Notes: generated by a model from the sequence alone, not told the origin. Counted from the first letter of the stretch, positions 4,515-24,191 are shown. The stretch: 32,000 bases of DNA from Nostoc punctiforme PCC 73102 (GCF_000020025.1 NC_010628.1:630001-662000), one strand, 5' to 3'. Numbers and translations are program-made.

Positions 4515-4598
4515 TAGATGTGTACATACTTAATAGCTGATAATAAGAACTTTAGTTCTTGGCTTTCAAGTACTAAAGTCCTTAGTACACAACACAAA

Positions 4599-6954: not shown

Positions 6955-7002
6955 GCATCGCAGGCTCGGTTTTTTGCTGTAACATACTTGACGTTGGGTT
7001 TT

Positions 7003-7305: not shown

Positions 7306-7701
7306 ATGGCTAAAAAATCTCAACCAAATGTAGAACAATACCAAGATGTCAGATTATCTGCCACTACAAGAATTTGGGTAATTACAGTCGCCATTCTCGG
7401 AGTTTGCGTCCCACTCTCAGCCGTTACTAGAAGTGGTGCTATTCTTCCTTTAGTTGCTATTGGTGGTGCAGCAGTTGGTACAGTTGCTGTTTGGCGTTCT
7501 GATGAGCAAAAATCAAAAACTAACTATTTGCAACAGCAGCAAATAGAACTGTTAGAGCGGAGATTAGCAAATTTAGAAACAATTGTTAGCAGCGATGACT
7601 TGAACTTGCAAATGAAAATTAAACAGATTGAAGCAAGGGATACTTTTGGTGACTCGTCTGATGTAAGTACTATACCCAGACAACCAAAACGCAAAGGTTA
7701 A
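7306..7701 (+). CDS. Hypothetical membrane protein with a C-terminal coiled coil (131 aa from the ATG)
   Basis: The track ORF starts at a TTG (7255). The in-frame ATG at 7306 gives MAKKSQPN.... There are two hydrophobic helices (IWVITVAILGVCVPL, ILPLVAIGGAAVGTVAVW), followed by QQQQIELLERRLANLETIV. Confidence 0.5.
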   Translation: MAKKSQPNVEQYQDVRLSATTRIWVITVAILGVCVPLSAVTRSGAILPLVAIGGAAVGTVAVWRSDEQKSKTNYLQQQQIELLERRLANLETIVSSDDLNLQMKIKQIEARDTFGDSSDVSTIPRQPKRKG

Positions 7702-11509: not shown

Positions 11510-12619
11510 TTACACGGACGAGGAATACAGGACGGAATCTTGTTCAAAAGTAGTCTTTTCCAGTGACGAGCGATATTTATGTTCCGATTCCAAGATCGGG
11601 ATACAGGTAATTAACCACACTAAACCTGCGGCATAGCCAGCTGTCACATCAGTCAGCCAATGTACTCCAAGGTAGAGCCGACTAAAACCGATCGCAGCAA
11701 TCAAGAAAACAGTCAAGCCATAAATCCAAAAGCGCCATTCAGGAAACTGCTTTGCTAGAACATAACCAGTAAAACCGTAAATCACTATTGAAACCATTGC
11801 ATGGCCGCTAGGAAAACTGTGTTGGCCGACATTAATAATATGCTTCCACAGTGCTGGACGCGCTCTACCAAATAATATTTTCATTAAACAATTTAGCAAG
11901 ATTGCACCGACTCCAGCGATACCCAAGATAGTTGCTTGCCAGCGACGATTAGAATATAACGGACTAATAGCCAGCCCCAAAGAAGATAACAGCATTACTA
12001 GGGGATCGCCCATAAAAGTGATACCAAGCATGATGCGATCGCGCAGTGGTGTATGCAACTTCTGGATCGAGAGCAAAATGGCTTCGTCAAGATTATATGC
12101 GTACAACAGTGCAGTGCCACATACAAGGGCACAAACAACCGGAATAAGTTGACTGGCTGTTTGGTTTAATTGTCGCTGCATAGATATTTGAGACAGTACG
12201 GCTGAATCAAATATGTTTCGATTATTACCTCCAACGAACCCAATATTTTCTTTAGTGCCAAAGGAATGCAAGTTACTGTCTCCAATGACTGCGTTAGATC
12301 CAAGTGATTTACTAACTTTTTTCCGATAATCTAAGACAATTTCTTGGATAAGTGATGCGATGGTCGAAGACCCGCCTTTGGCGTTCGTATTTAAACTGTT
12401 ATCTGGATGAAAAATAACAAGCACATTCCCTGTGTAACTATTAGCACGAGCTTGCGAGATTATTTTGTGCTCTAATAATCTCGATTCAAGATATTTTTTG
12501 AGAGCTTCCGAATGATAAAGCCCATTTACTTTATATCTAGCTCTTCCCTTAACAGCAGTATGTATTGCTTGAACCCAATGGGTTTGATTAAGAAGTGTAT
12601 GACAGCGAGGAGTACCCAT
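11510..12619 (-). CDS. Fusion protein: N-terminal HMA-like domain variant plus a C-terminal PAP2-type (acid phosphatase/lipid phosphatase) membrane domain
   Basis: PAP2 signature motifs are KILFGRARP, SFPSGHA and SRLYLGVHWLTDV, set among about 6 TM helices. The N-terminus is VQAIHTAVKGRARYKVNGLYHSEALKKYLESRLLEHKIISQARANSYTGNVLVIF. It aligns with the PGRxRFR domains found in the neighbouring genes. Confidence 0.8.
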   Translation of the reverse strand: MGTPRCHTLLNQTHWVQAIHTAVKGRARYKVNGLYHSEALKKYLESRLLEHKIISQARANSYTGNVLVIFHPDNSLNTNAKGGSSTIASLIQEIVLDYRKKVSKSLGSNAVIGDSNLHSFGTKENIGFVGGNNRNIFDSAVLSQISMQRQLNQTASQLIPVVCALVCGTALLYAYNLDEAILLSIQKLHTPLRDRIMLGITFMGDPLVMLLSSLGLAISPLYSNRRWQATILGIAGVGAILLNCLMKILFGRARPALWKHIINVGQHSFPSGHAMVSIVIYGFTGYVLAKQFPEWRFWIYGLTVFLIAAIGFSRLYLGVHWLTDVTAGYAAGLVWLITCIPILESEHKYRSSLEKTTFEQDSVLYSSSV

Positions 12620-12862: not shown

Positions 12863-13528
12863 CTATATAAGATTTGGTTCGCTGGCAGATTTCAGTTTCA
12901 AAGGCTGGGAATTCGCCTCGCCATTGCCTCGTAATCGCCATCGCTTGTTAGGCAAGATAAACATGGTGGCAGATTTCAACCTTTTAATTATGCTTCTTGA
13001 GGTAGAAAGCATCCGTTCCCAAATGTCTGTTCTAAACCTTCGATATACAAGAACATTACGTGCTTGGTTAATCTTGCGTGTATTATCAATTAAGTTTATT
13101 AAGGCATCAAAGATAGCCCCTACGATTGATTTTGCCATTACCTCTTTTGGCAGAACCACATCTTGAGCAGTTTGAATCAGATTAACCAGATGTTCGCGCA
13201 TTTGATTATCTGAAATTACACCTACTTTATAATTGATGACAATAGATGCAGCTTTTGGGTTAGCACGGACATTTGTAACTCTAGGATCGGATTCCATTGC
13301 TAATTTAAGTTGATTAGCATACTCAGTATCTCTGCCTAACAGAGGAATACGAAAACGAATCCGTCCAGGAATTGTATGGACAATGCTATAGAATATCTTT
13401 TGGGATGATGCTGCTTTCTTAGCTACGCTTTTAGTTGCTTTTTTTGGTGGTAAACGCAGGTTCATACTAGCAGTTTTGCCAGAATTAGACCGTTTTATAG
13501 AAGTCATCGTACTATTGTTTAATTTCAA
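12863..13528 (-). CDS. Protein with a single HMA2-like (PGRxRFR) domain and a basic C-terminal tail
   Basis: YSIVHTIPGRIRFRIPLLGRDTEYANQLKLAMESDPRVTNVRANPKAASIVINYKVGVISDNQMREHLVNLIQTA. The track start is a TTG at 13528. An in-frame ATG (complement of 13505-13507) is the more likely start. Confidence 0.7.
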   Translation of the reverse strand: MKLNNSTMTSIKRSNSGKTASMNLRLPPKKATKSVAKKAASSQKIFYSIVHTIPGRIRFRIPLLGRDTEYANQLKLAMESDPRVTNVRANPKAASIVINYKVGVISDNQMREHLVNLIQTAQDVVLPKEVMAKSIVGAIFDALINLIDNTRKINQARNVLVYRRFRTDIWERMLSTSRSIIKRLKSATMFILPNKRWRLRGNGEANSQPLKLKSASEPNLI

Positions 13529-14006: not shown

Positions 14007-16361
14007 GTGTTTATGCAGCAAGGGTTAATGTTACTAATTCAACTGGTACTAGAGTTTGCACCTGTTGTTGCAGAGCTAGTACAAAATAGAAATAAATCCA
14101 GTTTAGGTCTGAGTAAATATGAACCGATAGAAGCAATTCCCGAAATACTCAAAGTTTTTAATCTTTCAAATAAAAAAAGCGGTTATGTTGAAGATTTTGA
14201 AAAAGAAAGAATTTTTCAACAGCAATTAGTAGCCGATAATCATCAAACGCGATTAAAAATAGCCGCACAAGAGCGAGAAACAGCGCTTAAGTTACCAGAA
14301 GTCAATAAGATTATTGATAGCTGGCCCTTAAGATTATACCCTTCACAAATTTTAGACCACACCAATTATGGACACACTCCACTTAAAATTTTTATCGCTC
14401 CTCCGCAAGTAGATTTTGACCAATTTGGCGATCGTAGAGATGAAAATATTTCTCAAATTGAGTTAATGTTAGCTGAAGGATTAAGAGATTTTCTCAATAA
14501 ACATTACTCTTTACATAGTCAAGTTAGACCAACAGAGTTATTGGCAGGAGCCTGGGATAGTAAGCGTTTTCACAGTGAATCAAGTATTAAAGTTCTGTTT
14601 GGAATGTTGAAAACAGAGCCAAGTTTGATTTTAGAGTCAGAAAATGATGGAGATTATTTAAATTTTAGGATTGCCTACTGGGGTTTAGAGCAAGATAATT
14701 ATTATTATAAAACAATTGCTCGCTTACCTTACCGAGAAATTCTAGAAGAATCTGCTAAAAGGCGGGCATTAGAATGGAAGAAAATTAGAGATGAACTTGT
14801 GGCATTAGGAGAAAAATTAGAGGAAGTTAATCAGCTTGGAAAAGATAATTTGATAAATTTAGAAATTTTAGAAAAGGTAGAAAAATGGCATGAAAAAGGA
14901 ATTGATATTAGTAAGTTATCTTTACAATATCAAGTCAATCGTCAGGATTATGAAAAACTTTGCCAGGTTTTGATTACCTACCACTGTTTGGTTGCAGGTT
15001 GGGTAGCAGATATTTACCACCTGGTCGATCGTGGTGTACCTCCGCTACTACCAGAGTTGCTGCCGAGTTTGCTGTCAGATACTTTTGATTTACAATCAGT
15101 AGGGGTTATTGCCTCTGGTTACAAACAAGTTTACCAAGCTCTGGAAAATGAGCGCTGTTACTGGATTCCAGAATTGGCTTTACAATTAGCCCAGAGTTTA
15201 TGCCATTTAAGCGATGCCTACGACGGTAAACTACGCTCTTGGGCAAAGGAACAGCTAAATTATTCTGTGAGTACATGGTTACAACTACGCCAAGTATCAC
15301 CACACGATTCTCCTAACTTGCTTCAGGCAATGCAATCAGCCGTCAGCGTTAAAGATGAGGAATATGTAAAAAAGTTAAGAGAATATTTTGTCGCGGTGGG
15401 TGATACTCAGAGTATTGCTGATGTTGATGAAATTTTGAATCGCATTGCCAACCTCAAACACCAAGTAACAGTACAACATATCTTTCTCAGCCATACCCTA
15501 ACTGGACATTCAGAAAAAGTGACATCTGTCGCCATTAGTCCTGATTCTGAAACTTTAGTTAGCGGCAGTGCAGATAAAACCATCAAAGTATGGAATCTTA
15601 AGACTGGTAAACTTATCCGCACTCTCACAGAAGATTTAGGCAAAATTTCCTCTGTTGCAATTAGTCCTGATGGACATTATTTTGCTGTTGGTATTTGTCA
15701 ACACCCCAGAAGTAATGTCAAAGTATGGAATCTCAATTCTGACAAACTCCTTCACACTCTGTTAGGACATCAAAAACCGGTTAACTGCATCGCAATCAGT
15801 CCTGACGGGCAATTTCTTGCCAGTGGTAGTAATAAAATCAAAATTTGGAATTTGCATAAAGGCGATCGCATTTCTACCCTTTGGCATTCATTCACAGTTA
15901 ATGCTGCTGCTATCAGCCCCGATGGTACAATCCTTGCTAGTGGCAGTTCTGACAACAAAATTAGGCTGTGGAACCCACACACGGGAGATCCATTACGCAC
16001 CCTCAACGGACATTCAGGTGAGATAAAATCAGTAATCATCAGTCCTGATGGAGAAATTCTCTTTAGCGCTAGTGCAGACAAAACTATCAAAATTTGGCAT
16101 TTAACTACAGGCAAAGTGTTACATACCTTGACTGGACATTTAGAAGAGGTAAGATCCTTGGCTGTTAGTCCTGATGGAGAAATTCTCTTTAGCGGTAGCA
16201 CAGACAAAACCATCAAAATTTGGCATTTGCAGACGGGAGAGTTACTGCAAACTATCACAGAACACTCAGGGACAGTAAACTCTATTGCTATTAGCCATGA
16301 TGGTCAATTTTTGGCTAGTGCTAGTTCTGATAAAACCATCAAAATTTGGCAGATAAATTAA
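14007..16361 (+). CDS. WD40 (7-blade) protein with an unassigned ~490-aa N-terminal module
   Basis: From about aa 497 there are seven repeats of the form GH..V.S(V/I)AISPDG..L(A/F)SGS.DKTIK(I/V)W(N/H)L. The N-terminal module has no NTPase P-loop. It contains an alternating beta/alpha-looking segment (PLKIFIAPP...ELMLAEGLRDFLNKHY...ELLAGAW...SLILESE...YLNFRIAYWG). GTG at 14007; in-frame ATG at 14013. Confidence 0.85.
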   Translation: MFMQQGLMLLIQLVLEFAPVVAELVQNRNKSSLGLSKYEPIEAIPEILKVFNLSNKKSGYVEDFEKERIFQQQLVADNHQTRLKIAAQERETALKLPEVNKIIDSWPLRLYPSQILDHTNYGHTPLKIFIAPPQVDFDQFGDRRDENISQIELMLAEGLRDFLNKHYSLHSQVRPTELLAGAWDSKRFHSESSIKVLFGMLKTEPSLILESENDGDYLNFRIAYWGLEQDNYYYKTIARLPYREILEESAKRRALEWKKIRDELVALGEKLEEVNQLGKDNLINLEILEKVEKWHEKGIDISKLSLQYQVNRQDYEKLCQVLITYHCLVAGWVADIYHLVDRGVPPLLPELLPSLLSDTFDLQSVGVIASGYKQVYQALENERCYWIPELALQLAQSLCHLSDAYDGKLRSWAKEQLNYSVSTWLQLRQVSPHDSPNLLQAMQSAVSVKDEEYVKKLREYFVAVGDTQSIADVDEILNRIANLKHQVTVQHIFLSHTLTGHSEKVTSVAISPDSETLVSGSADKTIKVWNLKTGKLIRTLTEDLGKISSVAISPDGHYFAVGICQHPRSNVKVWNLNSDKLLHTLLGHQKPVNCIAISPDGQFLASGSNKIKIWNLHKGDRISTLWHSFTVNAAAISPDGTILASGSSDNKIRLWNPHTGDPLRTLNGHSGEIKSVIISPDGEILFSASADKTIKIWHLTTGKVLHTLTGHLEEVRSLAVSPDGEILFSGSTDKTIKIWHLQTGELLQTITEHSGTVNSIAISHDGQFLASASSDKTIKIWQIN

Positions 16362-16370
16362 GCTTTTTAG

Positions 16371-16949
16371 TTACTTGTTTGCTGATTCTTCTTGGCTAGT
16401 TCCATGCAACTTAATAAAGCTGTCAAAAGCATACCATGCTAAAACATACCAAGGAATAACTTCTAACTGCAATCCTTTATTTAGTAATTGTCGCAGTGAA
16501 AGACTAGCTAATCCCAAAGGAAAAAGAATTCGCAGATCAAAAGCACCATGCGTTGACTGTTTAACACGCTGGTTTAAGTCAACAAGCGCAGATGATACTC
16601 CTGCTGCTGCCTCGGTATTACCCTCGGTAACATCAGCAAAAATTATGCCTAAATCTTTAAGCGTTGCTAGCACATTTTCTAGACTGCCATCTTTACCATC
16701 GTAATTCATAACAATACTGCCATGATAGACATTCGTCTTAACTTGAGTAATGTGAGAATTTGCTGACAAAGCGTTGGCGATGCGTTGCATTTTTTCTAGT
16801 TGACGATGGGAATGACCCACTCTCAACCGCAATCTTCCGGGAGTCGAACTTACAACTTTTGTAGATATAGGTTTTGGTGATGTCTTGAAGTTGTTTTTGT
16901 CTAGAATTTCCGGCATTTTATTGTAAGTGCTATAACCATTTGTCAACAT
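16371..16949 (-). CDS. HMA2-like (PGRxRLR) domain protein with a C-terminal hydrophobic hairpin
   Basis: VVSSTPGRLRLRVGHSHRQLEKMQRIANALSANSHITQVKTNVYHGSIVMNY, then DLRILFPLGLASLSLRQLL...IPWYVLAWYAFDSFI. The stop is 9 bp from the stop of the convergent WD40 gene. Confidence 0.7.
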   Translation of the reverse strand: MLTNGYSTYNKMPEILDKNNFKTSPKPISTKVVSSTPGRLRLRVGHSHRQLEKMQRIANALSANSHITQVKTNVYHGSIVMNYDGKDGSLENVLATLKDLGIIFADVTEGNTEAAAGVSSALVDLNQRVKQSTHGAFDLRILFPLGLASLSLRQLLNKGLQLEVIPWYVLAWYAFDSFIKLHGTSQEESANK

Positions 16950-17023
16950 ACAACTGCCTTTTTGACTTGTATGAAGGTGGATTCTTTGTTGTGAAAAACC
17001 TTATTTTTTAATATCTTGCATTA

Positions 17024-17123
17024 GGGACTTCCAAACAATAAATTATTCTATTTTCGTAGGGTGCGTTACGGTATTTCACCTAACGCACCTTACTAGTTTT
17101 ATATTTTTGTAATTGGAAGTCCC
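17024..17123. repeat. Nested inverted repeat in the intergenic spacer between the 101-aa (DUF5132-like) and 192-aa genes
   Basis: The outer repeat is a perfect 11 bp: GGGACTTCCAA (17024-17034) and TTGGAAGTCCC (17113-17123). The inner repeat is 13 bp: GTAGGGTGCGTTA (17056-17068) and TAACGCACCTTAC (17081-17093), with one G:T position. Confidence 0.5.
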
Positions 17124-17162
17124 ATTTGGCGAACAATTTAACTTGCTAATGGGCAAATGAAA

Positions 17163-17468
17163 TTACGCACCATTATCGGCGACATCCGCATTGGTGGCAC
17201 TAGCTTCAAATACGGGCGTTTCTTTTTCATCAGCGAGTTCAGCTCTGGCTTCGGCTACCATGTCTTCCCAGGTTTCTCCCATTTCTGCAATGGTTCCCTT
17301 GCTTCTTTCATAAAGACCAATTCCGCCTTTGATGACTGACTTGACTAAGGGTTTACCAACTCCAGCGACAATCGGCAATAAAACAGGTGCTAAAAGTACT
17401 GCACCAATTCCGACTATAATACCGGGAGCGCCTGCATCTTCAACAAAATCACTAATTTTAGGTGCCAT
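17163..17468 (-). CDS. Small membrane protein, DUF5132-like (101 aa)
   Basis: GAPGIIVGIGAVLLAPVLLPIVAGVGKPLVKSVIKGGIGLYE followed by an acidic tail (EDMVAEARAELADEKE). This resembles the DUF5132 family as I recall it. A strong SD (AGGAGG) lies about 8 nt upstream of the ATG. Confidence 0.65.
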   Translation of the reverse strand: MAPKISDFVEDAGAPGIIVGIGAVLLAPVLLPIVAGVGKPLVKSVIKGGIGLYERSKGTIAEMGETWEDMVAEARAELADEKETPVFEASATNADVADNGA

Positions 17469-17539
17469 ATTTAATTTCCTCCTACTTGATTAAGAAATCC
17501 TGGAAAGCTTTTTAAGGTACTCTGCTCGGCATAGTTGTA

Positions 17540-19792
17540 TCATCTTGCCGATGGTAGAGTTTTATGTTGAGGACTTTTAAGAATTGGACGCAAACCGTTG
17601 ACTCCAGCAACTACGGTTGAGCCATTATTGACTACCGTTGCAGCTAAGGGGTTAAGACCAAAGAAAACGGCGATCGCTAATGCTGCTAAATTAGGAACAG
17701 CAACAATTCCTGTGTTTTGCCGAATCAATTGCTTGGCTTGACGAGCGATCGCGATCGCTTCTAATAAACCATACAAGTCATTCTGCATTAACACTAAGTC
17801 TGCTGTCTCGCGGGCAATCTCAGAACTGTTGGCAAAGGAGACGGAAACATCGGCGTAGGCTAAAGCTGGCGAATCATTGATCCCATCGCCTACAAATGCA
17901 ACTGTCTTACCTTGTTCGTGCAGTTGGCGGACAACTGTTGCCTTTTGTTCAGGAAAAGCTTCGGCGTGAGTATGCGTTGGCAAAATACCAAGTTGAGCAG
18001 CTACAGCAGTAGCAGTTCGCTTGTTATCGCCGGTTAACATGTGAATTTCTACACCTTCGACCGTTGAAAGTGCTGTGATGACTTCCCGGCTTTCGGGACG
18101 AAGAAGGTCACTATATTTAATAATACCTTGAAGTTCACCGTTGCTGGCTACATAAATCGCCGAATTTGCAGATTTTTGCTGACCATTTAGTGCTTCGGTA
18201 TCAATGCCACTGGAGCGCAAAAAGCGATCGCTCCCAACATAAACTGTCTCTCCATCAATCTGAGCTTGCACGCCCAAACCTAGTTGATAGTCCCACTTAC
18301 TACGCGGCAAAATTTCCACTTGCTCTGCTTCGGCATAGCGAACAATTGCTTCTGCTACTGGATGAGTTAAACGCTGTTCGGCGGCAGCTGCCAATTCCAA
18401 CACCCGTAATCTTGAGGTTGCTGGATTGAGACTTTCCACACTGACTACATCAACTTCTCCCTTAGTCAGTGTCCCCGTTTTATCAAAAACTATGGTATCA
18501 ACTTCTGCTAGTTGTTCTAACGCCCGTCCGCTACGGATAAGAATCCCCCGTCGTGCAGCATAAGTTAATGCTGCTAAAACTGTTGTGGGGACGGAGACTC
18601 GAATACCTGTAGCAAAGTCTAGAGTTAAAACGCTGGCTGTCCGTGAAGGGTTACGGGTTGCGGCAAATACTGCCCCACCAAGTAACAAAGTTGGCACAAC
18701 AGCTTTTTGAGCAAATTTCGTCGCATAATTCTCCATCCGCGTATCGTGGATAGGTGCTTCTTGCATTAACTTAATGCTCTGTCCGGCGCGGGTATCATTG
18801 CCGATCCATTCGGCAACAATATAAATTCGTCCTTCTCGTACCAGCGTTGAGGCGAAAACTGGTTGTCCTTTTTTCTTCAAGACTGGCATCGACTCGCCAG
18901 TTAATTTTTGCTCATCTAGCAGGGCTTTACCTCGCAAAATGCTACCATCAACCGGCACTTGCTCGCCAGGGTAAACAATTACTGTATCGCCACGCTGCAC
19001 ATCTTGAATGGGAATTTGTTGCTTTGCGCCATTGCGTTCCACCCAAACAAATTGCCCCAGAGAACTAAGTAAATCTAGAGTTTGTTGAGCAGAAGAACGA
19101 GCCGTGCGATCGCGGATATTTTCACCCACTTCAATTAAACCGAGCATCAGCGATGGTGTAAGAAATTGCCCTTGGAAGGTAGTAATAGCGATCGCCATAA
19201 AATCCAAAAAGTCAATATTCAATTTTCGCTCTACCCTAATACCTTCCCATGCTCGTTGGACAACAGGTAAAGTAGCTAGAGCGATTGGAAGCACAACTAT
19301 CAAAGGTGGGATCGGTAATCCTAACGGCCCTCCTAGCACTGCTAAAGCAGTGGCAACAGCAGAGAGTTGTAAACCTGGCCAAGATGGCTCTTTTTCGGTT
19401 TCCGATAAAGATGTAGAGTTTTTGAGAACGACTACTTCACTTGCAGCCTGAATCAAATCGTGAAGGTGCGATCGCATCTTCGCATCGGAAACTTTATCAG
19501 ATTTATAAGTAACTGCAACTGACATTGCCGCAGGCTTGACACGAACATTCTTCACTAGCGCATCTGCTGTTAGCAATACTTCGAGACGCTTGGCATAATC
19601 TGCATCACAGCGTAAACGAGGTAGGCGAAACCGCAGCCTTCCCGGAGTTGTATGGACAATGCTGTAGGTAACGTTAGGGAACTCTCTTTGAGAATGTCCA
19701 TTAGTGTCAGTTAAAGAAGCTTTTCCATTCCCTTCCAACACAGTGAATTGAGATTTTGGAGGTGATGAGAGTTGCAGTGCTACTTTTGCCAT
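17540..19792 (-). CDS. P-type ATPase with P1B-like architecture, an N-terminal HMA2-like domain and non-canonical transmembrane ligand motifs
   Basis: Core motifs present: TGES, DKTGT (18470-18484), LTHPVAEAI, MLTGDN and GDGINDSPAL. The N-terminal domain is YSIVHTTPGRLRFRLPRLRCDADYAKRLE.... The TM4 position reads SVPT (18584-18595) instead of CPC/SPC. The last TM reads NNGSTVVAGVNGLR (17615-17629 = NNGST) instead of the HEG.T type. Confidence 0.9.
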   Translation of the reverse strand: MAKVALQLSSPPKSQFTVLEGNGKASLTDTNGHSQREFPNVTYSIVHTTPGRLRFRLPRLRCDADYAKRLEVLLTADALVKNVRVKPAAMSVAVTYKSDKVSDAKMRSHLHDLIQAASEVVVLKNSTSLSETEKEPSWPGLQLSAVATALAVLGGPLGLPIPPLIVVLPIALATLPVVQRAWEGIRVERKLNIDFLDFMAIAITTFQGQFLTPSLMLGLIEVGENIRDRTARSSAQQTLDLLSSLGQFVWVERNGAKQQIPIQDVQRGDTVIVYPGEQVPVDGSILRGKALLDEQKLTGESMPVLKKKGQPVFASTLVREGRIYIVAEWIGNDTRAGQSIKLMQEAPIHDTRMENYATKFAQKAVVPTLLLGGAVFAATRNPSRTASVLTLDFATGIRVSVPTTVLAALTYAARRGILIRSGRALEQLAEVDTIVFDKTGTLTKGEVDVVSVESLNPATSRLRVLELAAAAEQRLTHPVAEAIVRYAEAEQVEILPRSKWDYQLGLGVQAQIDGETVYVGSDRFLRSSGIDTEALNGQQKSANSAIYVASNGELQGIIKYSDLLRPESREVITALSTVEGVEIHMLTGDNKRTATAVAAQLGILPTHTHAEAFPEQKATVVRQLHEQGKTVAFVGDGINDSPALAYADVSVSFANSSEIARETADLVLMQNDLYGLLEAIAIARQAKQLIRQNTGIVAVPNLAALAIAVFFGLNPLAATVVNNGSTVVAGVNGLRPILKSPQHKTLPSAR

Positions 19793-19934
19793 TACTTTTC
19801 TTTAATCCAAAATTGTTACACTTCGATGAAAATCACACTCTCGGCTGGGGTATAGAGAGCAAATTAGCCACCAATCCTGCGAGATTGATTAGCTATCAAC
19901 AGTTTGGTTATTTATCATTTGCTGGATTTCTGAG

Positions 19935-20774
19935 CTAATTTATCGCTGTGGCGGGATCATTTACAGATTCAATTAGACTGGCTAGATGAGATATTGCTGC
20001 TGACAAAAAGCTTTGCACTCGCTTCTGAGAATCCCGCATCATTCCAGTTTTATAGGTAATGACAACTGATCTCGCAGCGCTATTAACTCGCTCACTGGTA
20101 ACTGTCGAATCTGATTTGAGTAATGCCTCTAACCGTTGGACATATTTGGGATCGCAGGCAATTCGAGGCACACGAAACCGCACTCTTCCGGGAATTGCAT
20201 GAGCAATGCTATAAGCTACTTTTGCAGGTTTTTTTGGTTGTTGAATTACAGAATGAGCCGAAGATACCGAATTGTTTTTAGTCTTAGAGACTGATGCATC
20301 CGCAGAAGATAAAGAGAATGTTGCTGATTTCTGCTTCTGTGGTTGCATTGTTGGCTTTCTATCCTGCCTGTCTTCTGTTGCCACTAACGCTGAGTATGGT
20401 TTCAATTGGTTTGCAGTTGCTAGTACTACTTTTTCATTACCAGCCAACTGAATCAAATTAGCCAAATGCGATCGCATATCAACATCTGACACTACATCAG
20501 ATTTATAGGTAATGGCAATTGACCCTACCATAGTATTATTAACTTGCCGATCTATTACCAAAGGCTCATTAGCAAGCAAGGCAACAAGACGTTCCACATA
20601 TTTTGGATCTTCGCAAATCTGAGGGATGCAAAACGCCACTTGTCCAGGAAATGCACAAATAATGCTATGTACTACCCTTGAAGGCGGCGTTGCTGGGTAA
20701 TTAATCTTGTCTGTGACTGTTGGCTCTGGTTTTTTGTCTAAATCTGCTATCGATTCTAAATTTAAAACAGCCAT
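19935..20774 (-). CDS. Protein with two tandem HMA2-like domains (279 aa)
   Basis: Domain 1 is HSIICAFPGQVAFCIPQICEDPKYVERLVALL...GSIAITY. Domain 2 is YSIAHAIPGRVRFRVPRIACDPKYVQRLEALL...RSVVITY. A GGAGG SD lies upstream of the ATG. Confidence 0.7.
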   Translation of the reverse strand: MAVLNLESIADLDKKPEPTVTDKINYPATPPSRVVHSIICAFPGQVAFCIPQICEDPKYVERLVALLANEPLVIDRQVNNTMVGSIAITYKSDVVSDVDMRSHLANLIQLAGNEKVVLATANQLKPYSALVATEDRQDRKPTMQPQKQKSATFSLSSADASVSKTKNNSVSSAHSVIQQPKKPAKVAYSIAHAIPGRVRFRVPRIACDPKYVQRLEALLKSDSTVTSERVNSAARSVVITYKTGMMRDSQKRVQSFLSAAISHLASLIESVNDPATAIN

Positions 20775-20811
20775 AATTCCCCTCCAGTATTCCGCAATTT
20801 GAAACTGTATA

Positions 20812-21900
20812 TTAGGTTTCCAAGGGTAAGTTCGCCATAATGCCTAATGAGAAAAACATCGCAGGCGGTTTTAAGTTAGTCCACAAACTGGATAACTCTG
20901 AATTTATTTCGCTTGCTGTTGTTGAGTTGATAACTTCAGGAGTCTGACTAACATTTAAACTTGTTTGATGTGACGTTGTTGCGTCTGTAATTTGATTCAT
21001 CTGACTAACTTCTTGGAGGGGTTGGTTAGCCGTTGTAATTGGCTGCATTGGTGGGTTTGTCTCCAACGCTAATTCCATCAAACTCACCCAATAAGATAAT
21101 GGAATATCATGAGACTGATAAGCGATCGCGATCGATGCTGCATCAAAATTCATCCGCACACTTGTAACTTCAGCATCGGTTTTCACTATTCTCTCAAGTC
21201 GCCGCCCATAAGCTCGATCTTGAGCGATTTTTGGCACATGGAAGCGAATACGTCCGCTAATTGCATGGATTACGCTATAGTCAATCTTTGCAGCTGCTGC
21301 CACCTCGCTAGCCTTCTTAAGATTATTTGTTGACTTTTCTTGTTGGATAGTAGATTGGCATTCCTCTTTTGATAATTCCGATATCGCAGAACTGGTATTA
21401 TTACCGTCGTTTTTTTCTGATGTCGGAACTTGAGAGCCAAGATAACCAATTACACCACGGGTTGCATCCGCCGCAATCATATAAACTGGAATCGATACCC
21501 AGCCATGAATTCCTAACCCTCCTGTTACCGCCAAGCCTGTCATCATCGGAATTAAGGAAACACCCTGCTCTTTCCAAAATAAAGGCGATTTCCAAGCTGC
21601 AAAGGGATCGGTTTTGCTAGGTGAATCAGATGAAGCTTGCGGCTGTTGGATCTCAATATCGGATTTTAGCGCCAAAATTTGCGGTAATGAGAGCTTGTCT
21701 TCATTAAAATTAACTACCAAACTGCCAGTTTGCCCATTCACAGCAACTTCCGTCACTCCCTCTAAAGAGCGTAAATCTTGAGCTATGCTGTCTAATATTG
21801 AGTTCAAACTACTGTCAGTGGTGCGGAATCGCACGCGCCCAGTAGTTACATGAACTATTTGCAACCCACCAGAGGGCTGTAACTTCGTTGACTGTGCCAT
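20812..21900 (-). CDS. Protein with two HMA2-like domains separated by a hydrophobic segment (362 aa). First gene of the minus-strand cluster.
   Basis: Domain 1 is LQIVHVTTGRVRFRTTDSS...GSLVVNF. The hydrophobic region is GVSLIPMMTGLAVTGGLGIHGWVSIPVYMIAADA. Domain 2 is YSVIHAISGRIRFHVPKIAQDRAYGRRLERIV...ASIAIAY. Confidence 0.7.
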   Translation of the reverse strand: MAQSTKLQPSGGLQIVHVTTGRVRFRTTDSSLNSILDSIAQDLRSLEGVTEVAVNGQTGSLVVNFNEDKLSLPQILALKSDIEIQQPQASSDSPSKTDPFAAWKSPLFWKEQGVSLIPMMTGLAVTGGLGIHGWVSIPVYMIAADATRGVIGYLGSQVPTSEKNDGNNTSSAISELSKEECQSTIQQEKSTNNLKKASEVAAAAKIDYSVIHAISGRIRFHVPKIAQDRAYGRRLERIVKTDAEVTSVRMNFDAASIAIAYQSHDIPLSYWVSLMELALETNPPMQPITTANQPLQEVSQMNQITDATTSHQTSLNVSQTPEVINSTTASEINSELSSLWTNLKPPAMFFSLGIMANLPLET

Positions 21901-22005
21901 CTTAGTTGCTTTGTTCTGTAAAGATTAAATTAGGAGATACTTTAGCGACAATATTTAATTTTTCACGATTACTAATATTTTTAGTCATTTACCTGATTAC
22001 CCAAT

Positions 22006-22048
22006 AGCTAGATCAAGTCAATAGGTTAACAATAGGTTAAATCTAGCT
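22006..22048. promoter_or_regulatory. Candidate operator: two perfect tandem 11-bp direct repeats (CAATAGGTTAA x2) bracketed by an 8-bp inverted repeat
   Basis: The direct repeats are at 22019-22029 and 22030-22040. They are flanked by AGCTAGAT (22006-22013) and ATCTAGCT (22041-22048). The site lies in the divergent spacer between the HMA2-like cluster and the ABC operon. Confidence 0.35.
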
Positions 22049-22091
22049 TAAATCTGGGTATAAAGTATGTGTCTTCAGAATTATTTTTAAC

Positions 22092-22113
22092 AATAATTTT
22101 CATGAAAATGATT
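22092..22113. promoter_or_regulatory. AT-rich 22-bp palindrome (AATAATTTTCA|TGAAAATGATT), a candidate dimeric repressor site with some Fur-box likeness
   Basis: The 12-bp core TTTTCATGAAAA is perfect and the arms have one mismatch. It lies in the same divergent spacer, about 190-210 bp from the 362-aa gene start and about 225 bp from the ABC start. Confidence 0.3.
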
Positions 22114-22335
22114 ATTTAAGAAAGACAGACTTCTGAAAGCTCCCACTTCAGCCTTTAGCCAGGTGCGAGTTATTTACTTTAGACATAATAGAGGTAGATT
22201 CTCGCTCCCAGAGTTGAACATAATTGCTGAGTACGCAATTATGCTAATAATTTGTGTTCAAATACAGAAACCAGGGTATTTGAGCATTTCTAAGGGAGTA
22301 AAGGCTGAAAGAATTGATATTGTGTATGAGATTTT

Positions 22336-23340
22336 ATGATCGAAGTTGAGCATTTAAGTAAAATATACGGTTCCACCCCAGCGATTACTGATGTTACTTT
22401 TAGTGTCGAACCTGGGGAGATTTTAGGGCTTCTGGGGCCAAATGGCGCTGGTAAAACTACAACCATGCGGATTCTGGCAGGTTATTTACCAGCAACAAAT
22501 GGGAATGCCCGCATTGCTGGTTATGATGTCCATGAAAATTCTCTAGCGGTACGCCAACGAATTGGTTATTTACCCGAAACACCGCCGTTATATCCAGACA
22601 TGACTGTGGAGGGATTTTTGCATTTTGTTGCCCAGATTAAGGGAGTTCCAGCAGGCGATCGCCCCAACAAGGTAACAGCCGCTATCAAACGCTGCAACTT
22701 AGAAGATAAGCGGCGGGTAATTATTCGCAAACTCTCTAAAGGATATCGCCAACGTGTAGGAATTGCTCAAGCGATCGTTCACGATCCACCAGCGATCATT
22801 CTCGATGAACCCACCGTTGGACTCGATCCCCGACAAATAATTGAGGTACGGAATTTAATTAAAAGCCTCGCTGGGACTCATACAATTATTCTTTCGACGC
22901 ACATTCTGCCAGAAGTGAGCATGACTTGTAGCCGCGTCGCTATTATTAATCGCGGCAAAGTTGTGGCAACTAATACACCAGAAAACCTGATGACTCAGTT
23001 GACAGGCGGTTCCGGGTATGAGTTGGAAATAGAAGGAGAAGCTGCCCTAGCGAAACAGGTATTGCAAAATGTCGCGGGTGTGAGTCTGATCGAATCAATT
23101 CCCACCGCCGGAGGTCATCACCCACAAGCAAATCGCGCTTACCTGCGGGTGATATCGCAACCGGGAAAAGAACCAGGAAAGGATATTGTTGCAACCTTGG
23201 TGCGTGCAGGCTTTGGTTTACATGAACTGCGGCGAGTTAACGCTACCTTAGAAGATGTGTTTTTGCAACTGACCACAGAAGAAAAGAATTTCGAGACTGA
23301 GGTAGACTTAGCAGCAGACAACGAAGGAGAGGCAGCGTAA
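22336..23340 (+). CDS. ABC transporter ATP-binding protein
   Basis: Walker A GPNGAGKTT, signature LSKGYRQR, Walker B IILDEPTVGLD. Confidence 0.9.
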   Translation: MIEVEHLSKIYGSTPAITDVTFSVEPGEILGLLGPNGAGKTTTMRILAGYLPATNGNARIAGYDVHENSLAVRQRIGYLPETPPLYPDMTVEGFLHFVAQIKGVPAGDRPNKVTAAIKRCNLEDKRRVIIRKLSKGYRQRVGIAQAIVHDPPAIILDEPTVGLDPRQIIEVRNLIKSLAGTHTIILSTHILPEVSMTCSRVAIINRGKVVATNTPENLMTQLTGGSGYELEIEGEAALAKQVLQNVAGVSLIESIPTAGGHHPQANRAYLRVISQPGKEPGKDIVATLVRAGFGLHELRRVNATLEDVFLQLTTEEKNFETEVDLAADNEGEAA

Positions 23341-24153: not shown

Positions 24154-24159
24154 TCATTT

Positions 24160-24187
24160 GACAAATGACCAATGACAAATGACAAAT
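24160..24187. repeat. STRR-like heptamer array (GACAAAT GACCAAT GACAAAT GACAAAT)
   Basis: Four consecutive heptamers lie just upstream of the 24192 start. A shorter copy (CCAATGACAAATGAC) lies at 25898-25912, just after that gene's stop. Confidence 0.6.
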
Positions 24188-24191
24188 CATT

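What the first reader, a model, noticed from the sequence alone, without database searches (positions are those of the whole stretch)
17540..19792. P-type ATPase with intact catalytic core but all expected P1B metal-ligand positions substituted (SVPT for CPC/SPC; NNGST for HEG.T)
Seen in the sequence: the phosphorylation and nucleotide motifs are canonical (TGES, DKTGT at 18470-18484, HP, TGDN, GDGINDSPAL). The topology looks P1B-like, with two extra N-terminal helices.

Two positions differ from expectation. Where P1B pumps carry the Cys-Pro-Cys/His/Ser motif, this protein reads S-V-P-T-T (18584-18595). In the last helix, where several P1B subgroups have HEG(G/S)T...N..R, it reads NNGSTVVAGVNGLR (NNGST = 17615-17629).

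The thiolate, imidazole and carboxylate ligands for soft metals are therefore absent. The VPTT string resembles the IPTT of KdpB TM4, as I recall it. A routine 'heavy-metal translocating ATPase' annotation would probably be wrong about the substrate.

Inference: the substrate could be a hard cation or a non-metal. Alternatively the pump could work with partner membrane subunits, as KdpB does.
Basis: partly seen in the sequence, partly recalled or inferred. Interest (0 to 1): 0.7.

Follow-up and report, generated by a model that had tools for sequence, protein, structure and literature searches.

The report
Cysteine-free P1B pump, CoBaHMA operon
This Nostoc gene encodes an intact ATP-driven membrane pump that databases label a heavy-metal exporter, but its ion site has only oxygen ligands and its relatives sit beside calcium-handling genes, so it more likely pumps a hard cation such as calcium.

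Summary

S-V-P-T is the 'ATPTA' motif that all P1B pumps carry downstream. The true CPC equivalent is F393-A394-T395, with no proline, preceded by an invariant Asp392. The KdpB IPTT likeness is therefore an artefact. The claim that no carboxylate ligand is present is also wrong. The M6 reading (NNGST = HEGST) is correct.

The protein is not a degenerate copy. It belongs to a large, conserved clade with M4 'D-[FYL]-x-T-G-I-R', M5 'PN' and M6 '[NS]NG[ST]'. In an NJ tree this clade is sister to P1B-6. Its N-terminal domain is CoBaHMA, which has no CxxC.

In 33 non-redundant relatives:
- a small DUF5132 membrane protein lies within 3 kb in 22;
- a stand-alone CoBaHMA gene lies within 5 kb in 16;
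- a Ca2+/H+ exchanger lies within 5 kb in 8.

Neither DUF5132 nor the exchanger was found near 80 other, mostly ordinary P1B pumps. Some loci add carbonic anhydrase, a Ca-type P2 ATPase or a calcyanin-like gene.

Best reading: a hard-cation exporter, Ca2+ favoured, working with a PacL-like partner. No substrate has been shown.

The parts
17540..19792 (-). 750-aa P1B-fold P-type ATPase with an N-terminal CoBaHMA domain, 8 TM helices and intact A, P and N domains
   Evidence: ORF. Pfam E1-E2_ATPase, Hydrolase and HMA_2. TIGR01525 at 525.7 bits. AF2 model. Foldseek.
19433..19666 (-). N-terminal CoBaHMA (Pfam HMA_2) domain, aa 43-120. It has H47, R52, R54 and R56 and no CxxC.
   Evidence: HMA_2 scores 25.2 bits, E 1.8e-5, below the Pfam cut-off of 30. 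R52 and R54 are conserved in at least 90% and H47 in 74% of 50 clade members. AF2 gives a beta-beta-alpha-beta-beta-alpha pattern over 44-116.
19202..19213 (-). D194-F-L-D197 at the cytoplasmic start of M1, a conserved acidic pair and candidate cation entry site
   Evidence: D194 is present in 46/50 and D197 in 48/50. D194 aligns to an acidic residue in E. coli ZntA and CopA. D197 is shared only with P1B-6.
18890..18901 (-). TGES dephosphorylation motif of the A domain (aa 298-301)
   Evidence: TGE[SA] is kept in all 121 sequences aligned (120 homologues plus the query); one homologue reads TGEA.
18584..18619 (-). M4 ion-site segment D392-F-A-T-G-I-R398-V-S-V-P402-T. FAT (18608-18616) is the true CPC equivalent. 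SVPT (18584-18595) is the common downstream 'ATPT' motif.
   Evidence: Alignments. D392 and G396 are invariant; T395, R398 and P402 are conserved in at least 90%. AF2 shows a helix break at 391-392.
18470..18484 (-). DKTGT phosphorylation motif (D437)
17861..17890 (-). GDGINDSPAL hinge / Mg2+ motif of the P domain
17690..17692 (-). N701 in M5 ('PN'), at the position of CopA 'YN' Asn and ZntA Lys693
   Evidence: Present in 48/50. Reference alignment.
17615..17629 (-). M6 N722-N723-G-S-T. It is equivalent to HEGST of P1B-4, HN.(S/T) of P1B-6 and A-D714 of ZntA.
   Evidence: N723 is present in 44/50; position 722 is N in 32 and S in 17 of 50.
17163..17468 (-). 101-aa DUF5132 protein with a Gly/Ala-rich N-terminal TM helix, an amphipathic helix ('EDMVAEARAEL') and an acidic tail. 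Candidate PacL-like partner of the pump.
   Evidence: Pfam DUF5132, E 5.5e-24. Found within 3 kb of the ATPase in 22 of 33 non-redundant relatives and in 0 of 80 control P1B loci. hhalign against DUF6110 gives probability 53%, E 1.3e-4.
16371..16949 (-). 192-aa CoBaHMA protein with a C-terminal helical hairpin
   Evidence: Pfam HMA_2, E 1.7e-13, covering profile positions 9-150 of 154. Conserved at the same position in A. variabilis and in many metagenomic loci.
19935..20774 (-). 279-aa protein with one clear CoBaHMA domain (aa 189-273) and one degenerate N-terminal copy
   Evidence: Pfam HMA_2, E 6.8e-10. Sequence. Synteny.
20812..21900 (-). 362-aa protein with two CoBaHMA domains and hydrophobic segments; first gene of the cluster
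   Evidence: Pfam HMA_2, two stretches, E 3.7e-16. Synteny.
12863..13528 (-). 221-aa CoBaHMA protein, downstream of the cluster beyond an inserted WD40 gene
   Evidence: Pfam HMA_2, E 2.3e-12. A homologue lies about 4.1-4.4 kb downstream in L095, L097, L098, L100 and L106.
11510..12619 (-). 369-aa CoBaHMA-PAP2 fusion (lipid phosphatase family)
   Evidence: Pfam PAP2 E 1.8e-22 and HMA_2 E 9.1e-7.

Best explanation
The gene encodes a working P-type ATPase of the P1B fold. It belongs to a large, conserved clade that is not one of the named subgroups P1B-1 to P1B-7 and that is sister to P1B-6. I call it the 'DxxTG' or CoBaHMA-P1B clade.

Shown:
- The catalytic motifs are intact.
- The positions that bind Cu+, Zn2+ or Co2+ in characterised P1B pumps hold only oxygen-donor side chains: D392 and T395 in M4, N701 in M5, and N722, N723 and S725 in M6.
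- A conserved Arg398 lies in M4 (Lys in P1B-6).
- A conserved acidic pair, D194 and D197, lies at the cytoplasmic mouth of M1.
- The N-terminal domain is CoBaHMA, an HMA-like fold without metal-binding cysteines.
- The gene lies in a same-strand cluster with four further genes: DUF5132 and three CoBaHMA membrane proteins. That module recurs across Cyanobacteria and in Deinococcus.

Inferred:
- The pump carries a hard cation out of the cytoplasm by the normal E1/E2 cycle. I favour Ca2+; Mn2+, Mg2+ or another alkaline-earth ion are possible.
- D392, T395, N701 and N723 form a single site.
- R398 acts as a built-in counter-charge that replaces counter-transport, as Lys693 does in ZntA.
- The DUF5132 protein stabilises or scaffolds the pump in the membrane, as PacL1 (DUF1490) does for mycobacterial CtpC and as DUF6110 proteins are proposed to do for P1B-6 pumps.
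- The CoBaHMA domains regulate or localise the complex through an anionic partner.
For: - Family and fold.
- Register and ligand mapping.
- Purifying selection: 120 homologues at 70-99% identity all keep 'LD[FL][AC]TGIRVS[VI]PT' and 'NNG[ST]T', and all but one keep TGES (one reads TGEA); DKTGT is intact in all.
- Conservation in diverse members: 50 members at 30-70% identity keep D392 and G396 (invariant) and T395, R398, P402, N701, N732, D194 and D197 (at least 90%).
- Phylogeny: an NJ tree of 205 P1B sequences gives bootstrap 69 for the clade, 98 for P1B-6, and 86 for clade plus P1B-6 against the rest.
- Synteny: the same five genes occur in A. variabilis. DUF5132 is adjacent in relatives at 40-50% identity and in Deinococcus.
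- Counts: of 33 non-redundant loci with at least 3 kb on both flanks, DUF5132 is present in 22, a stand-alone CoBaHMA gene in 16 and a CAX gene in 8. In 80 control P1B loci the counts are 0 and 0 for DUF5132 and CAX.
- The exchangers are TIGR00378 calcium/proton exchanger equivalogs, scoring 337-408 bits against a cut-off of 211.
- Calcium-themed islands contain beta-carbonic anhydrase and a P2 ATPase closest to the PMR1/SERCA Ca-ATPase models.
- A calcyanin-like triple-GlyZip gene is co-operonic with two clade ATPases and a DUF5132 gene in three loci.
- Literature: DUF5132, CoBaHMA and cax genes flank and co-express with ccyA in Microcystis (bioRxiv 10.1101/2024.07.07.602159). PacL/DUF1490 and DUF6110 are partners of P1B-6(-like) pumps (PMC9374683). 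I confirmed DUF6110 genes directly upstream of SCA-type pumps.
Against: - No member of the clade has been characterised, so the substrate is inferred from ligand chemistry and gene neighbourhood only.
- The window's own cluster contains no cax, carbonic anhydrase or calcyanin gene.
- The site has one carboxylate, whereas known Ca2+ sites in P2 pumps use two or three. One Asp plus Asn plus Arg looks as much like the H+-ATPase centre.
- Islands that already hold a CAX and a Ca-type P2 ATPase could mean the P1B-like pumps carry something complementary rather than Ca2+.
- MntP also lies in one island, and the P1B-6-like CtpC handles Zn2+ and possibly Mn2+.
- The AF2 model is only moderate (pLDDT 63.7), and I could not read coordinates, so the side-chain geometry of the site is untested.
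- DUF5132-DUF6110 homology is only suggestive: hhalign probability 53% and 3.8% with shallow alignments.
- The NJ tree is a simple distance tree without P1A or P2 outgroups.
Confidence: 0.5

Rival explanations
1. It is still a transition-metal exporter (Mn2+, Fe2+, Co2+, Ni2+ or Zn2+) that uses O/N ligands instead of thiolates. On this reading it is a divergent functional relative of P1B-6 and CtpC, and the 'heavy-metal' label is broadly right.
For: - The clade is sister to P1B-6, whose relative CtpC confers Zn2+ resistance (PMC9374683).
- It shares with P1B-6 the M4 Asp, the basic residue at position 398, the M5 Asn and the M6 xN(G/L)(S/T) motif.
- A manganese efflux pump gene, MntP, lies in the Nostoc flagelliforme island.
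- Mn2+ accepts all-oxygen sites.
Against: - The single Cys of P1B-6 (SCA) and its M6 His are both replaced (T395, N722).
- There is no CxxC or His-rich metal-binding domain.
- No metal-responsive regulator (ArsR/SmtB, MerR or CsoR type) was found in the window ORFs I scanned, and no riboswitch was found.
- The recurrent neighbours are Ca2+/H+ exchangers, carbonic anhydrase and calcyanin-like genes, not metallochaperones.
Confidence: 0.22
2. It pumps H+ or a monovalent cation (Na+ or K+). It would energise or balance the neighbouring Ca2+/H+ and Na+/H+ exchangers rather than carry Ca2+ itself.
For: - The conserved intramembrane set is one Asp (D392), several Asn and one Arg (R398). From established knowledge, plasma-membrane H+-ATPases have a similar Asp-Asn-Arg centre (AHA2 D684, N106, R655).
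- CAX and Na_H_Exchanger genes lie next to relatives.
- A Ca-type P2 ATPase is already present in the same islands.
Against: - Similarity to H+-ATPases is low: TIGR01647 scores 152 bits against a cut-off of 615.
- The polar residues sit exactly at the P1B metal-site positions.
- The acidic pair at the M1 entrance resembles the divalent-cation funnels of ZntA and CopA.
- There is no precedent for a P1B-fold proton pump.
Confidence: 0.1
3. It is not an ion pump in the usual sense. It would be a lipid-linked or regulatory ATPase whose cycle acts on anionic lipids or on the CoBaHMA partner proteins, for example to remodel a membrane compartment.
For: - There are seven CoBaHMA-bearing genes within 10 kb, including a CoBaHMA-PAP2 lipid phosphatase fusion.
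- A YegS-type lipid kinase lies near the Gloeothece homologue.
- CoBaHMA is proposed to bind anionic lipids (Gaschignard 2024, as cited).
- Several clade members have dead phosphorylation or TGES motifs yet remain conserved next to active copies.
Against: - The window protein keeps every catalytic motif and a fully polar, conserved canonical ion site.
- P1B pumps have no known lipid pathway.
- The acidic entrance and the single buried Asp fit a cation.
Confidence: 0.07
4. It is a KdpB-like (P1A) catalytic subunit that drives K+ movement through separate channel-like subunits.
For: - T395 aligns with the first Thr of KdpB IPTT.
- Small membrane proteins are co-encoded.
Against: - TIGR01497 kdpB scores 144.8 bits against a cut-off of 527.9.
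- Foldseek E-values are about 1e-18 for KdpB and 1e-25 to 1e-28 for P1B structures.
- The topology has 8 TM helices including MA and MB.
- There is no kdpA, kdpC or kdpF homologue in the window.
- The VPTT/IPTT match is out of register by 8 residues.
Confidence: 0.02
5. It is a decaying copy of a CPC pump that has lost its ligands and no longer functions.
For: None beyond the missing Cys and Pro.
Against: - The motifs are conserved across 120 close homologues and across representatives of more than 90 clusters at 50% identity, from several phyla.
- The catalytic core is intact.
- The operon is conserved.
Confidence: 0.01

Closest known systems
P1B-6 ATPases (M4 'SCA', M5 N, M6 'HN.(S/T)'; uncharacterised subgroup of Smith, Smith & Rosenzweig 2014, as described in PMC13460109 and PMC9374683)
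   Same: - It is the sister group in the NJ tree, with bootstrap 86 for the joint split.
- Both have Asp before the CPC-equivalent triplet, no M4 proline, a basic residue three positions after the triplet (K in P1B-6, R here), the M5 Asn and the second M6 Asn.
- Both have an N-terminal HMA_2/CoBaHMA-like domain without CxxC: 29.4 bits in the R. capsulatus pump, just under the Pfam cut-off of 30, and only E 0.25 in the Flavonifractor pump.
- Both have a small one-TM helical protein encoded alongside (DUF6110 there, DUF5132 here).
   Different: - The only Cys (SCA) is Thr here, and the M6 His is Asn or Ser, so no soft or borderline ligand remains.
- P1B-6 forms its own clade that excludes the query (bootstrap 98).
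- The neighbours here are CoBaHMA proteins and, in relatives, CAX, carbonic anhydrase and calcyanin-like genes.
Mycobacterial CtpC-PacL1 'effluxosome' (P1B-6-like pump plus a DUF1490 scaffold/chaperone; PMC9374683, PMC13043812)
   Same: - A P1B pump of the P1B-6 neighbourhood is co-encoded with a protein of about 100 aa that has an N-terminal TM helix, a Glu/Ala-rich cytoplasmic helix and an acidic or His-containing tail.
- Adjacency is conserved across many genomes.
- One DUF5132 homologue ends in 'HDHHDH', like the PacL1 DLHDHDH motif.
   Different: - DUF5132 is a separate Pfam family, and homology to DUF6110/DUF1490 is only suggestive.
- The window protein has no His-rich tail.
- CtpC keeps CPC and exports Zn2+.
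- No interaction data exist for the cyanobacterial pair.
P1B-4 Co2+/Zn2+ pumps (SPC + HEG(G/S)T; sCoaT, PDB 7qbz)
   Same: Same fold and M6 framework: query 'NNGSTVVAGVNGLRP' against 'HEGSTLVVVANALRL'.
   Different: The SPC Ser, Pro and Cys are all replaced, and both His and Glu of HEG are Asn. It is not the nearest clade.
CoBaHMA-domain proteins and calcyanin (Benzerara 2022, PMC8890360; Gaschignard 2024, Proteins 92:776, not readable here)
   Same: - The N-terminal domain has the CoBaHMA signature: a His before beta1, Arg residues in beta1, and no CxxC.
- The abstract of Gaschignard 2024, recalled from memory, says CoBaHMA occurs in membrane transport proteins.
- Relatives are co-operonic with calcyanin-like GlyZip proteins.
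   Different: The accessible papers deal with the domain, not with the ion site or phylogeny of the ATPase. The window's Nostoc is not known to me to form intracellular carbonate.
KdpB (P1A)
   Same: Both are type I P-type ATPases. T395 matches the first Thr of IPTT.
   Different: It fails every membership test (see the membership table).

Membership tests
P-type ATPase, P1B class (general) | Catalytic motifs TGES, DKTGT, HP, TGDN and GDGxNDxPAL | tested here: met
   All are present at aa 298, 437, 477, 587 and 635 and are conserved in homologues.
P-type ATPase, P1B class (general) | Eight TM helices (MA, MB, M1-M6) and overall similarity to P1B pumps | tested here: met
   AF2 DSSP shows 8 TM helices. 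The top Foldseek hits are ATP7B, LpCopA, ZntA, AfCopA and sCoaT. TIGR01525 scores 525.7 against a cut-off of 346.25.
P-type ATPase, P1B class (general) | Cys/Pro-containing M4 motif (CPC, CPH, SPC, TPCP, SCA, CSC) | tested here: not met
   The equivalent triplet is F393-A394-T395. Across the clade it is [FYL]-[GA]-T.
P-type ATPase, P1B class (general) | Cytoplasmic metal-binding domain with CxxC or His-rich stretch | tested here: not met
   The N-terminal domain is HMA_2/CoBaHMA with no CxxC.
P1B-6 | M4 'SCA' | tested here: not met
   The query has 'FAT', whereas P1B-6 representatives read 'D[YF]SCA'.
P1B-6 | M5 Asn and M6 H-N-x-(S/T) (N-x18-HN hallmark, PMC13460109) | tested here: inconclusive
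   N701, N723 and S725/T726 are present, but the His is Asn722.
P1B-6 | Placement inside the P1B-6 clade | tested here: not met
   The P1B-6 clade (30 sequences, bootstrap 98) excludes the query. The query clade is its sister. This is an NJ tree only.
P1B-4 | M4 SPC and M6 HEG(G/S)T | tested here: not met
   The query has FAT and NNGST.
P1A (KdpB) | Equivalog-level similarity to KdpB | tested here: not met
   TIGR01497 scores 144.8 bits against a cut-off of 527.9. Foldseek E-values are about 1e-18 for KdpB and 1e-25 to 1e-28 for P1B structures.
P1A (KdpB) | M4 I-P-T-T with the Pro 43 residues before the phospho-Asp | tested here: not met
   KdpB P264 aligns to A394. The query P402 lies 35 residues before D437.
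P1A (KdpB) | Co-encoded KdpA, KdpC and KdpF subunits | tested here: not met
   None is present among the window ORFs.
CoBaHMA domain (Pfam HMA_2, PF19991) | HMA-like fold with an extra beta0 strand carrying a conserved His, conserved basic residues in beta1/beta2, and no CxxC (PMC8890360) | tested here: met
   'YSIVH47TTPGR52LR54FR56LP' is present. AF2 gives strands at 44-49 and 52-56, a helix at 64-76, strands at 80-86 and 91-96, and a helix at 103-116. The Pfam hit of 25.2 bits is below the cut-off of 30. Neighbouring genes pass the cut-off.
PacL-type partners (DUF1490/DUF6110), tested for the DUF5132 neighbour | About 100 aa, one N-terminal TM helix, a Glu/Ala-rich cytoplasmic helix, encoded next to a P1B-6(-like) pump | tested here: met
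   Sequence. Adjacency is 22/33 against 0/80.
PacL-type partners (DUF1490/DUF6110), tested for the DUF5132 neighbour | Sequence homology to DUF1490 or DUF6110 | tested here: inconclusive
   There is no Pfam cross-hit for the window protein at E up to 10. One homologue hits DUF6110 at E 0.058. hhalign gives probability 53%, E 1.3e-4 over 56 columns with deep alignments, but 3.8% with shallow ones.
PacL-type partners (DUF1490/DUF6110), tested for the DUF5132 neighbour | Physical interaction with the pump and stabilisation of it | not testable with these tools
   This needs pull-down, BACTH or fluorescence co-localisation experiments.
Calcyanin, tested for the GlyZip protein in L151, L172 and L173 | Three GlyZip repeats of about 50 aa, a central Gly-Pro, and Trp and Glu in the third repeat (PMC8890360) | tested here: inconclusive
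   These features are visible by eye in the sequences. The authors' HMM was not available, and the homologue search returned 6 unnamed proteins.

The most novel reading that the evidence does not exclude
The DxxTG/CoBaHMA-P1B clade would be the first P1B-fold pump for an alkaline-earth or other hard cation (Ca2+, possibly Sr2+ or Ba2+). It would be the missing ATP-driven transporter of the CoBaHMA/calcyanin system that underlies cyanobacterial calcium handling and intracellular amorphous CaCO3 formation. It would work in a membrane platform with a DUF5132 partner that is the cyanobacterial counterpart of mycobacterial PacL scaffolds.
Probability: 0.25. Interest if true: 0.85.

Novelty: new variant of a known kind. 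Interest (0 to 1): 0.62.

Why it matters
P1B ATPases are defined by thiophilic metal sites, and genome pipelines name every member a heavy-metal pump. This study delineates a large clade that keeps the machinery but has an all-oxygen site and no M4 proline. The clade accounts for roughly 100 of the 150 best 50%-identity cluster representatives, mostly cyanobacterial, with members in Deinococcota and Planctomycetota.

If it pumps Ca2+ or another hard cation, three things follow:
- The chemical range of the P1B fold is wider than thought.
- Many 'Cd/Cu/Zn ATPase' annotations in this clade are wrong.
- The search for the Ca2+-loading machinery of calcyanin-associated carbonate biomineralisation gains a concrete, testable candidate.

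The recurrent DUF5132 partner also suggests that PacL-type pump scaffolds, so far described for Actinobacteria and proposed for DUF6110 proteins (mainly Firmicutes), are more widespread.

Tried and rejected
- Riboswitch or leader RNA that could name the substrate: no Rfam hit in the window at gathering scores, and none at E up to 1 over 16000-22600.
- Promoter and terminator scan of the cluster: no more sites than in shuffled sequence.
It returned mostly CPC pumps. These were useful only as a control set and as P1B-6 loci.
- First metagenome scan attempt: the alignment was too degenerate. It worked after I narrowed it to the M4 motif.
- Shallow hhalign of DUF5132 against DUF6110 gave only a 20-column match at probability 3.8%. 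Deeper alignments raised this to 53%, which is still not proof.
- Pfam scan of the DUF5132 protein at E up to 10: no DUF1490 or DUF6110 hit.
- Literature: Smith 2014 (PMC4119550) and Gaschignard 2024 (10.1002/prot.26668) are not held in the library, and Chan 2010 has no PMC id. A search for FUPA family names found nothing. I therefore could not check whether this clade was already singled out there.
- Taxon names for distant relatives: the cluster look-up returned none.
- Naming the GlyZip protein by homology: only 6 unnamed hits.
- AF2 model: only moderate confidence (pLDDT 63.7) and no coordinates available, so I made no distance measurements in the site.
- KdpB-like, P1B-4, degenerate-copy and heavy-metal readings: considered and down-weighted, as set out under the rival explanations.

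Full report
**1. What is in the window**

ORF 17540-19792 on the minus strand encodes 750 aa. It is 99% identical to a protein of Nostoc sp. LEGE 12450 and 70-96% identical to proteins across the Nostocales.

The evidence for a P1B fold is as follows:
- Pfam finds E1-E2_ATPase and Hydrolase domains plus a weak N-terminal HMA_2 domain.
- NCBIfam TIGR01525 (heavy-metal P1B) scores 525.7 bits against a cut-off of 346. TIGR01512 ('cadmium family') scores 358 against 313, which explains the database names. KdpB reaches only 145 against 528.
- An AF2 model is of moderate quality (pLDDT 63.7; the TM region scores about 70-80). It has eight TM helices: MA, MB and M1-M6.
- The best Foldseek matches are ATP7B, LpCopA, ZntA, AfCopA and sCoaT at E 1e-25 to 1e-28. 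KdpB comes only at about 1e-18.

The ORF is a real P1B-fold pump with an intact catalytic core.

**2.

Three alignments agree on the M4 register. They are a phmmer alignment to A. fulgidus CopA, a MAFFT alignment that includes 65 CPC pumps, and a reference alignment with E. coli CopA, ZntA and KdpB taken from the K-12 genome.
- CopA 'A-C-P-C-A-L-G-L-A-T-P' lies over query 'D-F-A-T-G-I-R-V-S-V-P'.
- The CPC equivalent is therefore F393-A394-T395 (window 18608-18616).
- S-V-P-T (18584-18595) is the 'ATP(T/M)' motif that ordinary P1B pumps also carry eight residues further on.
- The spacing agrees. P402 lies 35 residues before D437. The CPC proline of CopA and ZntA and the IPTT proline of KdpB all lie 43 before the phospho-Asp.

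Three consequences follow. The VPTT/IPTT likeness to KdpB is an artefact. The pump lacks even the M4 proline. The residue just before the triplet is an Asp (D392), so a carboxylate is present.

N722-N723-G-S-T aligns to H-E-G-S-T of sCoaT and of an SPC pump, to H-N-x-(S/T) of P1B-6, and to A-D714 of ZntA. N701 in M5 occupies the position of the CopA 'YN' Asn and of ZntA Lys693.

**3. It is a conserved family, not a decayed copy**

In 120 homologues at 70-99% identity, the M4 segment reads 'LD[FL][AC]TGIRVS[VI]PT' and M6 reads 'NNG[ST]T'. DKTGT is intact in all of them, and TGES in all but one, which reads TGEA.

A full HMMER scan of 1.84 billion cluster representatives was also run. About two thirds of the best 150 hits carry 'D-[FYLVI]-x-[TS]-G-x-R' and '[NS]-N-G', down to about 30% identity. 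Next come 'D-Y-S-C-A...K' with 'H-N' (P1B-6), and then canonical 'ACPCA' pumps.

In an alignment of 50 diverse members:
- D392 and G396 are invariant.
- T395, R398, P402, N701, N732, D194, D197, R52 and R54 are conserved in at least 90%.

An NJ tree of 205 P1B sequences over 538 columns gave these results:
- The 'DxxTG' clade is recovered with 99 sequences and bootstrap 69.
- The P1B-6 clade is recovered with 30 sequences and bootstrap 98, and excludes the query.
- The two together separate from all CPC, SPC, CSC and CPD pumps with bootstrap 86.

A basic residue at query position 398 (Arg in this clade, Lys in P1B-6) and Asp at 392 and 197 are shared derived features of the two groups.

**4. 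The N-terminal domain and the gene cluster**

Residues 43-120 carry the CoBaHMA signature described by Benzerara et al. 2022 (PMC8890360). That signature is a His before beta1, Arg residues in beta1, and no CxxC.

The ATPase sits in a tight same-strand cluster:

| Coordinates | Product |
|---|---|
| 20812-21900 | two CoBaHMA domains plus hydrophobic segments |
| 19935-20774 | CoBaHMA protein |
| 17540-19792 | the pump |
| 17163-17468 | DUF5132, 101 aa |
| 16371-16949 | CoBaHMA plus helical hairpin |

Beyond an inserted WD40 gene lie two more CoBaHMA genes. One is a 221-aa protein and the other is a CoBaHMA-PAP2 lipid-phosphatase fusion.

The same five genes occur in A. variabilis.

**5. Synteny in distant relatives**

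DUF5132 lies directly beside the pump in several relatives:
- Phormidium;
- four metagenomic relatives at 40-45% identity;
- a second Nostoc flagelliforme plasmid;
- Gloeothece verrucosa PCC 7822;
- Deinococcus peraridilitoris.

I ran a metagenome scan with the clade-specific pattern D[FY][GA]TGIR[VI][AS]. It gave 80 more loci.

After collapsing to 85% identity and requiring at least 3 kb on both flanks, 33 loci remained. Among them:
- DUF5132 lies within 3 kb in 22.
- A stand-alone CoBaHMA gene lies within 5 kb in 16.
- A Ca2+/H+ exchanger lies within 5 kb in 8.

In the 80 loci returned by the genome-contig scan, most of which are ordinary CPC pumps (a few are P1B-6 and two belong to the clade), neither DUF5132 nor CAX was found.

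All seven exchangers I scanned pass the TIGR00378 'calcium/proton exchanger' equivalog cut-off (337-408 bits against 211).

Several loci, and plasmid pNFSY07 of Nostoc flagelliforme, form an island. It contains:
- two clade ATPases;
- one or two cax genes;
- a universal stress protein;
- a P2 ATPase whose best models are PMR1/SERCA-type Ca-ATPases;
- MntP and DUF1345;
- in L130 and L087, a beta-carbonic anhydrase.

In three loci (L151, L172, L173) a 303-343 aa protein lies in one operon between two clade ATPases, next to a DUF5132 gene. It has three long glycine-zipper repeats, a central Gly-Pro in the first repeat (and in the second in L172 and L173), and Trp and Glu in the third repeat. These are the published hallmarks of calcyanin.

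In Microcystis, DUF5132, CoBaHMA-DUF454 and cax genes flank the calcyanin gene and are co-expressed with it (bioRxiv 10.1101/2024.07.07.602159).

**6. The DUF5132 partner**

Boudehen et al. 2022 showed that mycobacterial CtpC, a P1B-6-like pump, needs PacL1 (DUF1490), a one-TM Glu/Ala-rich protein. They noted that related DUF6110 proteins accompany P1B-6 pumps (PMC9374683). I confirmed DUF6110 genes directly upstream of SCA-type pumps in four Firmicutes loci.

DUF5132 has the same size, the same architecture and the same genomic role for the sister clade. Sequence evidence for homology is suggestive only:
- There is a shared 'E..ED[IM][LV]AEA[KR]' helix.
- One DUF5132 member hits DUF6110 at E 0.058.
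- hhalign gives probability 53%, E 1.3e-4 over 56 in-register columns with a 73-sequence DUF5132 alignment.
- hhalign gives only 3.8% with shallow alignments.

**7. Mechanism**

Shown:
- The catalytic motifs are intact.
- The canonical M4, M5 and M6 ligand positions are polar, all-oxygen and strongly conserved.
- There is a conserved acidic pair at the M1 cytoplasmic mouth.
- Arg398 in M4 is conserved.
- The partner genes are conserved.

Inferred:
- The protein runs a normal E1/E2 export cycle for a hard cation.
- D392, T395, N701 and N723 form one site.
- R398 acts as a built-in counter-charge.
- DUF5132 acts as a PacL-like scaffold.
- CoBaHMA acts as a regulatory or localising domain.

The neighbourhood evidence points to Ca2+. 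The chemistry alone cannot separate Ca2+ from Mn2+, Mg2+, H+ or Na+. I give about 0.5 to 'hard-cation pump with partner proteins' and about 0.3-0.35 to Ca2+ specifically.

**8. Caveats**

- No member of the clade has been characterised.
- The window's own cluster has no cax, carbonic anhydrase or calcyanin gene.
- The tree is a distance tree without outgroups.
- Three key papers could not be read: Smith 2014, Gaschignard 2024 and Chan 2010. The clade may already have been noted there.
- No riboswitch or metal regulator was found that might name the substrate.

**9. Verdict**

The coordinates and the M6 reading are right. The M4 register, the KdpB analogy and the 'no carboxylate' claim are wrong.

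The heavy-metal label is unsupported by the ligand set and probably wrong, and a hard cation and partner proteins are plausible.

The protein is a new variant of a known kind: a P1B-fold pump clade outside the P1B-1 to P1B-7 scheme, with a testable link to calcium handling.

Noticed in passing
L151 2535-3497 (-); L172 10001-11017; L173 10001-11032: A calcyanin-like protein of 303-343 aa lies in one operon between two clade ATPases, beside a DUF5132-like gene. It has three long GlyZip repeats, a central Gly-Pro in the first repeat (and in the second in L172 and L173), and Trp and Glu in repeat 3. In L172 the operon continues with DUF454 and a CoBaHMA + GlyZip + His-rich-tail protein. Only 6 unnamed homologues exist in the 5.8-billion-protein set.
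   Followed up: partly
L116 5325-7328; L131 12061-14487; L133 4820-7252; L134 8327-10207; also P0177, P0224, P0226, P0239, P0244: Many clade members have destroyed phosphorylation motifs (for example FGITST, VDYTGT, FELSSV, VFDHCDH) or a degenerate TGES (TGTL/TGTP in L172 and L173). They keep the M4 and M6 signature and sit in tandem with an intact copy. This suggests active/inactive pump pairs.
   Followed up: partly
L171 (Nostoc flagelliforme CCNUN1 plasmid pNFSY07, 93977-116199) and L128-L132: A conserved cation island contains DUF1345 x2, MntP, ParB_N, a paralogous Cys-free ATPase ('LDFSH[SG]IR'), SUMF1/FGE, the main CoBaHMA-ATPase, Usp, cax (plus a second, sometimes split, cax) and a Ca-type P2 ATPase. 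A beta-carbonic anhydrase lies nearby in L130.
   Followed up: partly
They are separated from the cluster by a WD40-repeat gene on the other strand (14007-16361) and are followed by a DDE transposase (10121-11431).
   Followed up: partly
L081 11122-11877 (-) and 10522-10770; L087 10848-11609 (-) and 10512-10781 (-): In two distant relatives the pump is followed by a conserved small ORF of 82-89 aa and a ParA/MipZ-like ATPase. Polyphosphate and phosphate-starvation genes (Ppx-GppA, PsiE, PPK2; PhoH and alkaline phosphatase in L086) lie close by.
   Followed up: no
DUF5132 homologue listed (locus not recorded; sequence ending ...GHPETHDHHDHG): One DUF5132 protein ends in a His/Asp-rich tail that resembles the PacL1 DLHDHDH metal-binding motif. 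Several others end in a recurrent 'HPE' motif. The window's copy has neither.
   Followed up: no
L174 (Deinococcus peraridilitoris plasmid pDEIPE01) 4945-7785; L001 (Pirellulales MAG) 1513-7540: The clade is not only cyanobacterial. Deinococcus has a DUF5132-like gene 13 bp upstream of a 'LDFASGIRVSAPT' pump with two CoBaHMA-like N-terminal repeats. The Pirellulales contig has a 'DFGTG' pump followed by a second CoBaHMA-bearing 837-aa ORF, which is probably also an ATPase; its domains were not checked.
   Followed up: partly
L005 3829-4131; L030 1053-1328; L031 7297-7629; L036 7693-7998: DUF6110 genes (E 1e-34 to 1e-41) lie directly upstream of SCA-type (P1B-6) pumps in four Firmicutes genomes. 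One has a weak cross-hit to DUF1490 (E 0.012). This independently reproduces the association reported in PMC9374683.
   Followed up: yes
window 17540-19792 and database names: Sources name this protein and its orthologues 'cadmium-translocating', 'Cu2+-exporting' or 'Cd/Co/Hg/Pb/Zn-translocating' ATPase. The likely cause is that TIGR01512 scores above its cut-off (358 against 313) even though none of the Cd/Zn ligands is present.
   Followed up: yes
window 22336-25868 (+): Divergently transcribed from the cluster is an ABC transporter set: ABC_tran, an ABC-2 permease, and an ABC_transp_aux/GldG-like protein. I found no evidence that it is linked to the pump.
   Followed up: no
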